The notes beneath the pieces were generated by a model that worked only from the letters and a program-made list of their open reading frames with translations, did not search any database and was not told the DNA's origin. Of a stretch of DNA of 64,000 nt, positions 17,177 to 19,224 are shown in pieces. A program made the translations under genes and the position numbers. Numbering within the stretch: the first letter of the stretch is position 1; the number at the start of each line of letters is the position of its first letter. The stretch is taken from positions 3,305-67,304 of the forward strand of contig DASPSY010000094.1 of assembly GCA_035623685.1 (NCBI GenBank), written 5' to 3'. Source of the DNA: Gaiellaceae bacterium (GTDB lineage: Bacteria > Actinomycetota > Thermoleophilia > Gaiellales > Gaiellaceae).

Positions 17177-18322
17177 GTGAGTTCGCGCAAGATCCAGATT
17201 TTCGACACGACGCTACGAGACGGGGAGCAATCGCCGGGCATCGCGCTGCGCCCGGACGAGAAGGTGGAGATCGCCAAGCAGCTCGAGCTTCTCGGGGTGG
17301 ACGTGATCGAGGCGGGCTTCGCGGTCGCGTCACCGGGGGATCACGAAGGAGTTTGTGCCGTCTCGAAGGCGGTGGACACGACCGTCGCCTCGCTATGCCG
17401 GACCCGCCGTGAGGACATCGACGCGTCCGTCGACGCGCTGCGCGACGCGAAGCGCTCGAGACTGCACATCTTCCTCGCAACGAGCCCGATCCACATGGAG
17501 AAGAAGCTCGGCCTCGAGCCGGACGAGGTCGTCGAGCAGGCGGCGTGGGCGGTGGGCTACGCACGCGAACGCGCGGACGAGGTCGAGTTCTCGTGCGAAG
17601 ACGCCACGCGCTCGGATCCCGCGTTCGTGGCTCGTGTGTGCGACGCCGTCGTCGAGGCAGGCGTCGACGTCGTCAACCTCCCCGACACGGTCGGCATCTG
17701 CTTCCCGAACGAGCACGCTGACTTCTTCCGGACGGTGCGCGAGCTCTGCCCGTCCCTCGAGCGGGTCACCCTCTCCGCGCACTGCCACGACGACCTGGGT
17801 CTCGCGGTCGCGAACTCGTTGGCGGCCGTCGAGGCAGGGGTCGACCAGATCGAGTGCACGATCAACGGCCTCGGCGAGCGCGCGGGCAACGCCGCGCTCG
17901 AGGAGGTCGCGATGGCTATGCGCGTTCGAAAGGACCGCTTCGACGTCGTGACCGGTATCGATCCGACCGCGATCGCCGCCACCTCGGCGCTGGTCGCACG
18001 CCTCACGGGCTACGACGTGCAACCGAACAAGGCGATCGTCGGCGCGAACGCGTTTGCACACGAGGCGGGCATCCACCAGGACGGCCTGCTCAAGGACGTG
18101 TCGACCTACCAGATCATCGATCCGCGCGAGCTGGGCTACGCGATGACGCTTCCGCTCGGCAAGCACTCGGGCCGGCACGCGTTCGCACGCGCATGCGCCG
18201 ACGCGGGCATCGAGCTCGACCGAGAGCAGCTCACGAGTGCCTTCGAGCGCTTCAAGGAGCTCGCGGATACCGGCAGACCCGTGACGATCGCGGACGTGCT
18301 CGACGAGGTGGTCGTCGCATGA
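17177..18322 (+). CDS. leuA: 2-isopropylmalate synthase family enzyme, short form (381 aa) lacking the C-terminal regulatory domain
   Basis: MSSRKIQIFDTTLRDGEQSPG..., HCHDDLGLAVANSLAAVEAG and GLGERAGNAALEEV are LeuA/CimA/NifV catalytic-barrel motifs. The protein ends shortly after the GKHSGRHAF subdomain. Confidence 0.8.
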   Translation: MSSRKIQIFDTTLRDGEQSPGIALRPDEKVEIAKQLELLGVDVIEAGFAVASPGDHEGVCAVSKAVDTTVASLCRTRREDIDASVDALRDAKRSRLHIFLATSPIHMEKKLGLEPDEVVEQAAWAVGYARERADEVEFSCEDATRSDPAFVARVCDAVVEAGVDVVNLPDTVGICFPNEHADFFRTVRELCPSLERVTLSAHCHDDLGLAVANSLAAVEAGVDQIECTINGLGERAGNAALEEVAMAMRVRKDRFDVVTGIDPTAIAATSALVARLTGYDVQPNKAIVGANAFAHEAGIHQDGLLKDVSTYQIIDPRELGYAMTLPLGKHSGRHAFARACADAGIELDREQLTSAFERFKELADTGRPVTIADVLDEVVVA

Positions 18323-19224
18323 GCCGCCGAACGTACAGCGTGATCTGTCTCGCTTGGCACGGCGTCGGCCCGGAGGTGATGGCGGCCGCGAGCAGAGCAC
18401 TCGCCGCCACCTGTCGTCTCCACGGCATGCTGGTCGAGGAGCGTCACGTCCCGTTCGGCGCGGATGCGCTGACGCGATTCGGGCGCCCGTTCCCGCACTC
18501 CTCACGGCGCGCGGTCGTCGCCGCGGACGCGGTGCTCGTCGCATCCAAGTCGGGGCACGCGCTCGTCGCGCTGGAGGAAGACCTCGACTTCCACGCAACG
18601 GTCGTCAGTGTCCGCTTCGACCACGGCAACATCACGCTGTTCTCGCCGCTCGGGCCGGACGGCTGGGCCTGGACGCTCGAGCGCGCGAGCGCATCCGCGC
18701 GCGCGAGCCGCGGCCGGATCACGCTCGTCGGCGTCGACCCGCGCTGGGCGGACGAGGCCGATGAGCTCGAGGCGTACGGCGACGGGCTCGAGGTCGAGCG
18801 GCTTGACGCACAGGAGGCGGTGCGAGCCCTCGTCTTCGACCCGGAGCGGTTCGACGTCGTCGTCTGTCCGCCTGAGCTCACGCGAACGGCGCCCGATCTC
18901 GCCGCCGGCCTGCGCTCCCGGAGGACGACGGCTTGGGGCAGGCTCGCGCCGGAAGGGCCGAGCGTCTTCGGCGTGTCGGACGACGCCGCGGACGAGCTTG
19001 CCGGCCATGGGGTCGCGGATCCGAGCTCGATGCTGCTCGCCGCCGCACTGATGCTCGGCGAAGGGCTGGGCGAGCGAAGCGCCGCCGCGACTCTGACGAA
19101 CGCCGTCGGACGTGCAGGACCCACCGGCATGCTGCTGCCGTCGACGCGGGACCGCGCGGACGTCGTGGTCGCTCAGCTCCCGCTCGCACTTGCGAATGCC
19201 GAGTTCTACCGGGAGGCCGTATGA
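18319..19224 (+). CDS. isocitrate/isopropylmalate dehydrogenase-like protein, apparently catalytically degenerate
   Basis: ATG 18319 (ATGA overlap with leuA) inside ORF 17854..19224. It aligns by eye to the leuB in this window (ICLAWHGVGPEV vs VCLPGDGIGAEV; FDVVVCPPELTRTAPDLAAGL vs FDVIATENTFGDILSDVAAG). However, it lacks the R/Y/K/Asp catalytic residues. Confidence 0.7.
   Translation: MSRRTYSVICLAWHGVGPEVMAAASRALAATCRLHGMLVEERHVPFGADALTRFGRPFPHSSRRAVVAADAVLVASKSGHALVALEEDLDFHATVVSVRFDHGNITLFSPLGPDGWAWTLERASASARASRGRITLVGVDPRWADEADELEAYGDGLEVERLDAQEAVRALVFDPERFDVVVCPPELTRTAPDLAAGLRSRRTTAWGRLAPEGPSVFGVSDDAADELAGHGVADPSSMLLAAALMLGEGLGERSAAATLTNAVGRAGPTGMLLPSTRDRADVVVAQLPLALANAEFYREAV

What the first reader, a model, noticed from the sequence alone, without database searches (positions are those of the whole stretch)
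18319..19224. Catalytically degenerate isopropylmalate-dehydrogenase paralogue translationally wedged between leuA and ilvB
A 301-aa ORF starts with ATGA overlap on the leuA stop and ends with ATGA overlap on the ilvB start. It is therefore co-translated with branched-chain enzymes.

It is clearly homologous to the bona fide leuB in this same window:
- ICLAWHGVGPEV vs VCLPGDGIGAEV
- DAVLVASKSG vs DAVLLGAVG
- FDVVVCPPELTRTAPDLAAGL vs FDVIATENTFGDILSDVAAG
- GVSDDAADELAGHGVADPSSMLLAAALML vs [26 protein letters not shown]

The residues that make IPMDH/IDH work are replaced:
- the RE..G.Y block
- the Lys of VDKANVL
- the Asn and one Asp of N.FGDILSD
- the HGSAPD block

That pattern fits a pseudoenzyme kept for a structural or regulatory role. 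Its neighbour leuA has lost its own leucine-binding regulatory domain, which makes a regulatory-partner hypothesis attractive. That hypothesis is pure inference.
Basis: partly seen in the sequence, partly recalled or inferred. Interest (0 to 1): 0.6.

Follow-up and report, generated by a model that had tools for sequence, protein, structure and literature searches.

The report
Dead LeuB relic kept before ilvB
A 301-residue protein sitting between leuA and ilvB is a leucine-pathway dehydrogenase (LeuB) that has lost its whole active site. It has still been kept under selection in soil bacteria of the family Gaiellaceae, so it is an undescribed "pseudoenzyme" whose job in branched-chain amino acid synthesis is unknown.

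Summary
**Observation: confirmed.**
- ORF 18319-19224 encodes 301 aa. It overlaps the leuA stop and the ilvB start by ATGA.
- It has the IPMDH fold: Pfam Iso_dh 49.5 bits, AF2 pLDDT 89, Foldseek TM about 0.8 to IPMDH structures.
- It scores 60 bits against a 353-bit cut-off on the LeuB equivalog model.
- All eight substrate, catalytic and metal residues are invariant in 21 true LeuBs. None is conserved in 70 orthologues.
- The Tyr block and the dimer arm are deleted in 70 of 70 orthologues.

**What it is.**
- It is a real gene. dN/dS is 0.06-0.17, similar to its neighbours.
- It is confined to one family, Gaiellaceae, and found in 25 of 53 sampled genomes.
- It lies directly upstream of ilvB-ilvN-ilvC in 79 of 80 loci (the 80th ends right after X), behind a conserved Ile/Leu/Val leader peptide.
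- In sister families the same slot holds an intact leuB, in the order leuA(full-length)-leuB-ilvBN. The ORF therefore occupies the slot of the operon's old leuB. The working leuB sits 10 kb away, next to leuCD.

- Against: eight genomes keep the protein under equal constraint without any short LeuA.
- For: no sampled genome with the short LeuA lacks it, although that sample was drawn through X.

**Function.** Unknown. My best guess is a dispensable non-catalytic accessory factor of the ilvBNC enzymes.

**Novelty.** No literature was found. I class it as a new variant of a known kind, of moderate interest.

The parts
17001..17087 (+). 28-codon Ile/Leu/Val-rich leader peptide ORF (…SIVLVLSILPL) at the head of the operon
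Evidence: The same kind of ORF, ending …IVLVLSILPL or …GIELILILPV, is conserved upstream of the first operon gene in 20 related loci.
17177..18322 (+). Short LeuA (2-isopropylmalate synthase catalytic core, 381 aa, no LeuA_dimer regulatory domain)
   Evidence: HMGL-like 301 bits plus HCS_D2. NF002086, 541 bits against a 532-bit cut-off; no LeuA_dimer domain anywhere in the genome.
18319..19224 (+). X: catalytically dead IPMDH-fold protein, 301 aa (the finding)
19221..20960 (+). ilvB, acetolactate synthase large subunit. Its start overlaps the X stop.
   Evidence: three TPP domains. TIGR00118, 754 bits against a 538-bit cut-off; ilvB follows X in 79 of 80 related loci.
20957..21472 (+). ilvN, acetolactate synthase small (regulatory) subunit
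   Evidence: ACT_AHAS_ss plus ALS_ss_C.
21489..22499 (+). ilvC, ketol-acid reductoisomerase
   Evidence: KARI_N plus KARI_C.
29254..30243 (+). Functional leuB (3-isopropylmalate dehydrogenase) with all catalytic residues
   Evidence: Iso_dh 354 bits. TIGR00169, 358.7 bits against a 353.2-bit cut-off; motifs intact.
31097..33099 (-). leuD (31097-31690) and leuC (31687-33099), convergent with leuB-pheA
   Evidence: Aconitase_C and Aconitase.

Best explanation
**Shown.**
- X is an IPMDH-fold protein that has lost every residue needed to bind 3-isopropylmalate and the metal, and to catalyse the reaction. It has also lost the dimerisation arm.
- It is still a functional gene under purifying selection.
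- It occupies the slot that holds an intact leuB in sister families, whose operon reads leader-leuA-leuB-ilvB-ilvN-ilvC. The working LeuB of Gaiellaceae sits elsewhere, next to leuCD.
- X is transcribed behind a conserved Ile/Leu/Val leader peptide. Its stop usually overlaps the ilvB start, so it is made together with acetolactate synthase when branched-chain amino acids run short.
- Sequence constraint has moved. The old active-site and dimer-interface region is now the most variable part. The N-terminal beta-alpha-beta unit and the AG.GVADP…LLAAALMLGEGLGER helix of domain 1 are as conserved as in real LeuB.

**Inferred.**
- X acts as a non-catalytic accessory protein of the enzymes encoded just downstream, most probably acetolactate synthase IlvBN. 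It would work as a binding, stabilising or metabolite-sensing subunit, using domain-1 surfaces.
- The role is helpful but dispensable, because several lineages have lost X.
For: **Fold and family.**

**Loss of catalytic residues in 70 of 70.**

**Purifying selection.**
- dN/dS is 0.06-0.17 for X.
- IlvB gives 0.03-0.14 and LeuA 0.04-0.20 in the same close pairs.

**Gene order.**
- ilvB-ilvN-ilvC lies directly downstream in 79 of 80 loci; the 80th ends at the contig edge right after X.
- The X stop and ilvB start overlap in 55 of 79 loci. The gap is 15 nt or less in 10 more.

**Co-expression.** The leader peptide is conserved upstream of whichever gene comes first.

**Distribution.**
- True X (227-470 bits on the family profile) occurs only in family f1. 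Canonical LeuB scores 132 bits or less.
- In f1, the 23 genomes with neither X nor a real ilvB stand against 25 that have X.

**Outgroups.** f2 and f3 have an intact leuB in the same slot.

**Shift of constraint.**
- Column entropy is 1.8-1.9 bits in residues 136-212 of X, against 0.7-1.1 bits in LeuB.
- It is 0.86 bits in residues 213-260 of X, against 0.81 bits in LeuB.
Against: - There is no direct evidence of any partner.
- I ran a crude AF2 test on a naturally fused X-IlvB reading frame from a related locus. It gave pTM 0.64 and no sign of confident docking. The test is weak: one chain, a shallow unpaired alignment and no PAE.
- Five genomes keep ilvBNC without X. In one of them only the last third of X survives. 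AHAS therefore does not need X.
- AHAS already has its own regulatory subunit, IlvN.
- Adjacency could be pure inheritance from the ancestral leuB position and not a functional link.
Confidence: 0.4

Rival explanations
1. HisZ-like partner of the truncated LeuA. X binds the 381-aa LeuA, which lacks the leucine-binding LeuA_dimer domain. X then supplies regulation or stabilisation in trans.
For: - All 17 sampled genomes with the short LeuA also have X, adjacent to it.
- All 5 ilvB-bearing genomes that lost X also lack the short LeuA.
- 11 X-bearing genomes, including this one, have no LeuA_dimer domain at all.
- The outgroup has a full-length LeuA and an intact LeuB in the same slots. Truncation of LeuA and loss of LeuB catalysis therefore arose in the same lineage.
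- leuA and X overlap by ATGA.
Against: - 25 of 80 loci have X first in the operon, with no leuA beside it.
- 8 of 25 X-bearing genomes have no short LeuA anywhere. They carry a full-length LeuA elsewhere.
- X is equally constrained in those genomes, with dN/dS 0.07-0.16.
- The 17/17 versus 8/13 contrast ignores phylogeny. The genomes were also chosen by X and ilvB status, so the link is partly built in. Stepwise erosion of the 5' end of the operon could produce the same pattern.
Confidence: 0.2
2. New ligand-binding or catalytic function. X has been re-tooled around the retained nucleotide-binding elements (the GIGPEV loop and the AG.GVADP loop). It now binds a nucleotide or metabolite, or catalyses a different reaction.
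For: - The N-terminal L..G.GPE loop and the A-G-x-G-V-A-D/N-P loop are nearly invariant. HG.A.D survives in about 60% of orthologues.
- Family-specific invariant polar residues exist: H35, H43, R63, W118, R202 and E248.
Against: - In the window's own protein the HGSAPD block reads DDAADE.
- C10 and H43 are already present in the active positional LeuB of the outgroup, so they are not new.
- No residue set resembling a known active site was found.
- The gene has been lost repeatedly without loss of the pathway genes.
Confidence: 0.15
3. Mainly a cis role. The reading frame is kept because translating it delivers ribosomes to the ilvB start, or sets spacing after the attenuator. The protein itself has little or no function.
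For: - Stop and start overlap in most loci.
- The last codons of X carry the GGAGG-like sequence just ahead of the ilvB ATG.
- In G111 only a 105-codon 3' remnant of X survives. It still ends overlapping the ilvB start.
- X has been lost several times.
Against: - dN/dS of about 0.1 along the whole protein, conserved length and a confident fold are not expected for a frame needed only for ribosome traffic.
- Six loci have a gap of 32-169 nt between X and ilvB, yet keep X intact or nearly so.
Confidence: 0.08
4. IDH3-like heteromer. X pairs with the true LeuB as a non-catalytic subunit, as the beta and gamma subunits of mitochondrial NAD-IDH do.
For: - Both are IPMDH-fold proteins encoded 10-20 kb apart in the same genomes.
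- There is precedent in hetero-oligomeric NAD-IDH, whose chains appear among the profile hits.
Against: - The arm that forms the inter-subunit sheet is deleted in 70 of 70 orthologues.
- The helix-h region is the most variable part of X.
- In IPMDH each active site borrows Lys185 and Asp217 from the other subunit (established knowledge). A LeuB-X dimer would therefore be inactive at both sites.
Confidence: 0.07

Closest known systems
3-isopropylmalate dehydrogenase (LeuB, EC 1.1.1.85; e.g. Thermus thermophilus IPMDH, PDB 1IPD/1HEX/2Y3Z)
   Same: Clear homologue with the same two-domain fold. Foldseek TM is 0.74-0.81 and a profile search gives E = 1e-28 to 1e-32. X sits in the gene slot that sister families fill with leuB.
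   Different: The Arg triad, the Tyr/Lys pair and the Asp metal ligands are absent. About 45 residues are deleted, including the Tyr block and the dimer arm. X scores 60 bits against a 353-bit cut-off on the LeuB equivalog.
Regulatory subunits of hetero-oligomeric NAD-isocitrate dehydrogenase (human IDH3 beta/gamma, yeast IDH1)
   Same: These are non-catalytic paralogues of a beta-decarboxylating dehydrogenase, kept alongside the catalytic paralogue.
   Different: Those subunits keep the dimer interface and a ligand site derived from the active site. X has deleted the arm, and its old active-site region is its most variable part. No heteromer has been shown for X.
ATPTB3 of the Trypanosoma brucei mitochondrial ATP synthase
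   Same: A protein of the IDH/IPMDH fold that lost catalysis and survives as a non-catalytic protein.
   Different: ATPTB3 is eukaryotic and built into an unrelated machine. X is bacterial and still embedded in its ancestral biosynthetic operon.
HisZ (dead HisRS paralogue regulating short-form HisG) and PyrC' (inactive dihydroorotase subunit of Pseudomonas ATCase). Recalled from general knowledge, not tested here.
   Same: These are bacterial pseudoenzymes encoded with a biosynthetic pathway that serve as regulatory or structural subunits. They are the model for what X might do.
   Different: HisZ co-occurs strictly with short HisG. X does not co-occur strictly with the short LeuA, and it is dispensable for ilvBNC.

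Membership tests
Pfam PF00180 Iso_dh (isocitrate/isopropylmalate dehydrogenase superfamily) | Score above the Pfam gathering threshold, and the IPMDH/IDH fold | tested here: met
   49.5 bits against 27. AF2 pLDDT 89 and pTM 0.90. The best PDB matches are all IPMDH, with TM 0.74-0.81.
LeuB, 3-isopropylmalate dehydrogenase (TIGR00169 equivalog) | Score above the curated equivalog cut-off | tested here: not met
   60.4 bits against a 353.2-bit cut-off. The window's true LeuB scores 358.7 bits.
LeuB, 3-isopropylmalate dehydrogenase | Substrate-carboxylate Arg triad (Tt R94, R104, R132) | tested here: not met
   In the window's X these positions read E86, V96 and S109. In 70 orthologues the first is R in 14, and the second and third are never R. 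All 21 LeuBs have R at all three.
LeuB, 3-isopropylmalate dehydrogenase | Catalytic Tyr139 / Lys185 pair | tested here: not met
   VGGLYFG is deleted in 70 of 70. The Lys column reads V, S, G or A.
LeuB, 3-isopropylmalate dehydrogenase | Metal-binding Asp217, Asp241 and Asp245 | tested here: not met
   The columns read R/K/Q/G/T, then E/D/R/A/V (D in 15 of 70), then E/G/A/D (D in 4 of 70). All 21 LeuBs have D at all three.
LeuB, 3-isopropylmalate dehydrogenase | Homodimer through the arm beta-sheet and the helix g/h bundle | tested here: not met
   The arm segment is deleted in all orthologues. The helix-h region has the highest column entropy in X, 1.87 bits against 0.67 bits in LeuB. The oligomeric state itself cannot be tested with these tools.
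LeuB, 3-isopropylmalate dehydrogenase | NAD-binding loops ([17 protein letters not shown]…N) | tested here: inconclusive
   G.GPE and AG.GVA(D/N)P are nearly invariant. HG is kept in 44-54 of 70 orthologues but reads DD in the window's protein. Asp258 is D in 48 of 70. Binding itself was not testable.
Non-catalytic subunit of a hetero-oligomeric beta-decarboxylating dehydrogenase (IDH3 beta/gamma type) | A conserved canonical interface for pairing with the catalytic paralogue | tested here: not met
   The arm is deleted and the interface helix is variable. Complex formation is not testable here.
HisZ-type trans regulatory subunit of a truncated enzyme (here the short LeuA) | Strict co-occurrence with the truncated enzyme | tested here: not met
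   8 of 25 X-bearing genomes lack the short LeuA. 25 of 80 loci have X first in the operon. The converse held in the sample, which was drawn through X: every genome with the short LeuA has X (17 of 17).

The most novel reading that the evidence does not exclude
X is a trans-acting sensor subunit made from a dead LeuB. It binds a pathway metabolite or nucleotide through its retained domain-1 loops. It passes that signal to the short, regulatory-domain-less LeuA and/or to acetolactate synthase. Gaiellaceae would then have a HisZ-like way of controlling branched-chain amino acid synthesis that is unknown elsewhere.
Probability: 0.2. Interest if true: 0.8.

Novelty: new variant of a known kind. 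Interest (0 to 1): 0.55.

Why it matters
**Biology.**
- Bacterial pseudoenzymes are few and mostly found by accident.
- This one is large: about 600 database hits at E ≤ 0.001, and more than 100 species genomes encode it.
- It lies in an abundant soil lineage and is caught in the act. Sister families still have the active enzyme in the same slot. Members keep the dead copy under selection. Some lineages have deleted it, and one keeps only a stub.
- That makes it a clean natural series for asking what keeps a dead enzyme alive.
- It may reveal an unknown accessory or regulatory layer on acetolactate synthase or on regulatory-domain-less isopropylmalate synthase.

**Annotation.**
- Source annotations in the protein database call these proteins '3-isopropylmalate dehydrogenase' or 'isocitrate/isopropylmalate dehydrogenase'.
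- That label is wrong for enzymatic function and would mislead metabolic reconstructions.

Tried and rejected
**1. Docking of X on IlvB.**
- No multimer tool was available, so I folded a naturally fused X-IlvB reading frame. It comes from L051, where a frameshift falls 12 codons before the X stop.
- My first alignment (A4) was unusable, because MAFFT laid the X rows onto IlvB. I rebuilt it as A5.
- The result was pTM 0.64 and mean pLDDT 78. There was no sign of a confident interface, but the test is too weak to exclude one.

**2. Origin by tree.**
- X is monophyletic (100/100) on a long stem inside the LeuB radiation. It is only weakly sister to the positional LeuB of family f2 (53/70).
- An AU test does not reject a recent in-family duplication of the working LeuB (p = 0.22).
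- Descent from the operon's leuB therefore rests on gene position, not on the tree.

**3. Domain fusions as a clue to a partner.**
- Longer database proteins carrying the X domain are all read-throughs into the IlvB TPP_enzyme_N domain, or fragments.
- These are most likely assembly frameshifts at the 4-nt overlap.

**4. RNA elements.** Rfam found nothing in 16600-19400.

**5. Literature.** Three full-text searches found nothing on an IPMDH pseudoenzyme or on this gene in Gaiella.

**6. Longer ORF.** The 456-aa ORF from GTG 17854 in the same frame is rejected. It overlaps leuA out of frame, and all orthologues start at the MSR… position.

**7. Mapping conserved residues on the model.** This was not possible, because model coordinates are not exposed.
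Full report
**Observation**

It runs from ATG 18319 to TGA 19224 and encodes 301 aa.
- Its ATG overlaps the leuA stop as ATGA.
- Its TGA overlaps an ilvB ATG at 19221. 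A second in-frame ATG lies two codons later.
- The longer same-frame ORF from GTG 17854 is an artefact of high G+C. All orthologues begin at the MSR… position.

**What the protein is**

- Pfam assigns it to Iso_dh at 49.5 bits, against a gathering score of 27.
- On NCBI's LeuB equivalog it scores 60 bits against a 353-bit cut-off. The true LeuB of the window (29254-30243) scores 359 bits.
- The two proteins align at 26% identity, E = 4e-14.
- Sequence and profile searches of the PDB put IPMDH first, ahead of homoisocitrate, tartrate and isocitrate dehydrogenases.
- An AlphaFold2 model built on 44 orthologues is confident, with pLDDT 89 and pTM 0.90.
- Its best structural matches are all IPMDHs, at TM 0.74-0.81.

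**Loss of the active site**

I aligned 70 orthologues with 21 genuine LeuBs from the same class.
- The eight residues that define IPMDH chemistry are Tt R94, R104, R132, Y139, K185, D217, D241 and D245. That numbering is from my own knowledge of the family.
- All eight are invariant in the 21 LeuBs. None is conserved in X.
- The VGGLYFG block, the arm that follows it, and part of DKANVL are deleted in 70 of 70.
- The nucleotide-binding loops are partly kept. G.GPE and AG.GVA(D/N)P are nearly invariant. HG.A.D is present in about 60% of orthologues, but the window's copy reads DDAADE.
- Constraint has moved. Residues 136-212, the old active site and helix-h interface, are the most variable part of X at 1.8-1.9 bits. 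The same region is the most conserved part of LeuB at 0.7-1.1 bits.
- Residues 1-63 and 213-260 are as conserved in X as in LeuB.

**It is a living gene**

- Nei-Gojobori dN/dS is 0.06-0.17 for X in 14 close pairs of loci.
- IlvB gives 0.03-0.14 and LeuA 0.04-0.20 in the same pairs.
- The values are no higher in the clade where X has no leuA next to it.

**Distribution**

- The big protein collection returns about 600 relatives. Those that are named are Gaiellaceae, Gaiellales or 'Actinobacteria' MAGs.
- An exhaustive HMMER search shows a small, sharply bounded family. There are 27 cluster representatives at E < 1e-30. Canonical 350-380-aa IPMDHs appear only from about E = 1e-14.
- I scanned 301 genomes of the class with the family profile, and the scores are bimodal. 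True X scores 227-470 bits over its full length. Canonical LeuB scores 132 bits or less, over the C-terminal half only.
- True X occurs only in the window's own family, in 25 of 53 sampled genomes.
- Of the 28 genomes without X, 23 also lack a real ilvB. Their best TPP-enzyme hit is 29-37% identical. The six of them that were checked also lack any LeuA_dimer domain, so they look like branched-chain auxotrophs.
- Five genomes keep ilvBNC without X: G009, G111, G027, G222 and G141.
- These five belong to genera whose other members have X, so X has been lost repeatedly.
- In G111 only a 105-codon C-terminal stub remains. It still ends overlapping the ilvB start.

**Gene context**

- Of 80 related loci, 79 have ilvB-ilvN-ilvC directly downstream. 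The other one ends at the contig edge.
- The X stop overlaps the ilvB start by 1, 4 or 10 nt in 55 loci. The gap is 15 nt or less in 10 loci, and 32-169 nt in 6.
- Eight long-read assemblies have frameshifted or fused frames. I take these to be assembly errors.
- Upstream, 51 loci have the short leuA. In 25 loci X is the first gene after a divergent gltB.
- A 20-45-codon leader ORF ending in …IVLVLSILPL or …GIELILILPV is conserved upstream of whichever gene comes first.
- X therefore belongs to an attenuator-type branched-chain operon.

**Origin**

- In the two sister families of the same order, the gene directly upstream of ilvB is an intact leuB with every catalytic motif.
- In family f3 the order is leuA (full length, with LeuA_dimer)-leuB-ilvB-ilvN.
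- An earlier scan note describes the same string in another genome (e1-3928901).
- X therefore occupies the ancestral leuB slot.
- The working LeuB of Gaiellaceae lies 10-20 kb away. In the window it sits beside pheA and convergent leuD-leuC.
- The protein tree shows X as one clade on a long stem inside the LeuB radiation.
- The tree cannot tell descent from the positional copy apart from a later duplication of the working copy (AU p = 0.22).

**The LeuA hypothesis**

- The window's genome is 94% complete and has no LeuA_dimer domain at all.
- 11 of 25 X-bearing genomes share that state.
- All 17 sampled genomes with the short LeuA have X next to it.
- However, eight X-bearing genomes have no short LeuA. 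They carry a full-length LeuA elsewhere, and X is equally constrained there.
- X therefore has a function that does not depend on the short LeuA.
- A further role with LeuA is not excluded. The 17/17 versus 8/13 contrast is suggestive, but it is not corrected for phylogeny, and the genomes were chosen by X and ilvB status.

**Other mechanisms**

- A LeuB-X heterodimer is unlikely. The arm is deleted and the interface helix is variable. In IPMDH each site needs Lys and Asp from the partner subunit (established knowledge), so such a dimer would be dead.
- A purely cis role in ribosome delivery to ilvB fits the G111 stub and the SD-like GGGAGG inside the last codons of X. It does not explain protein-level constraint.
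- A crude single-chain AF2 test on a naturally fused X-IlvB frame gave pTM 0.64. That shows no confident docking and is inconclusive.

**Verdict**

- X is an undescribed pseudoenzyme derived from IPMDH and kept under selection. It is co-expressed with the ilvBNC genes.
- Its most likely role is as a dispensable non-catalytic accessory factor of acetolactate synthase. That part is inference.
- No paper on it was found.
- Source annotations in the protein database label it as a dehydrogenase.

Noticed in passing
window 17001-17087; also L001 4519-4602, L047 5762-5860 and 18 other loci: A leader-peptide ORF ending in a run of Ile/Leu/Val (…SIVLVLSILPL or …GIELILILPV) is conserved across Gaiellaceae. 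It lies upstream of the first gene of the operon, whether that gene is leuA or X. This points to ribosome-mediated attenuation by branched-chain amino acids.
   Followed up: partly
L107 (G111:C7) 4332-4649: In one genome that lost X, a 105-codon ORF keeps only the C-terminal third of X (…LLATAVLLADDLGRRGAA…LLPSARRDTEFSMGVTG). It still ends overlapping the ilvB start. This is a deletion intermediate that preserves the junction.
   Followed up: partly
genomes G039, G063, G099, G262, G292, G212, G167 and others of the same family: 23 of 53 sampled Gaiellaceae genomes, mostly more than 92% complete, have no real ilvB and no X. The six that were checked also have no LeuA_dimer domain. They may be branched-chain amino acid auxotrophs. 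One of them is placed in the same genus as the window's genome.
   Followed up: partly
whole genome G000; L082 (C118:5323-6087): The genome has no LeuA_dimer domain at all. It has a second short (about 365 aa) isopropylmalate/citramalate/homocitrate-synthase-like gene, which scores below all NCBIfam equivalog cut-offs. This is possibly a citramalate or homocitrate synthase.
   Followed up: partly
L026 2985-4560 (G123:C2:376757-377140) and G015:C1:1295772-1296158: In one genus, a full-length LeuA/CimA-like gene with LeuA_dimer lies directly upstream of the short leuA-X-ilvBNC string. It is 28% identical to the short LeuA. Two synthases therefore stand in tandem.
   Followed up: no
L035, L051, L057, L063, L065, L077; proteins P0148, P0155, P0229: Recurrent X-IlvB fused reading frames occur in long-read MAGs and contig-end fragments. 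The frameshifts lie in the last 12-90 codons of X. I take them to be assembly indels and not real fusions, but I did not check them against reads.
   Followed up: partly
L074 (DASSRG010000322.1, 2.2 kb): A 2.2-kb contig carries gltB, X and ilvB in the arrangement typical of Gaiella. It is binned in a 'Candidatus Limnocylindrales' (Chloroflexota) MAG, which is probably a binning error.
   Followed up: no
window 19221-19229: ilvB has two in-frame ATGs, at codons 1 and 3 (MRM…), and this is conserved in most loci. The real start may be the third codon. X and ilvB would then be separated by 2 nt and would not overlap.
   Followed up: no
L112 3857-4664 (G162:C4): The intact-looking positional leuB of one outgroup genome is split by a frameshift near codon 182. 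In the sister genome G069 the gene aligns in a single frame across that point. This is a long-read error or a recent inactivation.
   Followed up: no
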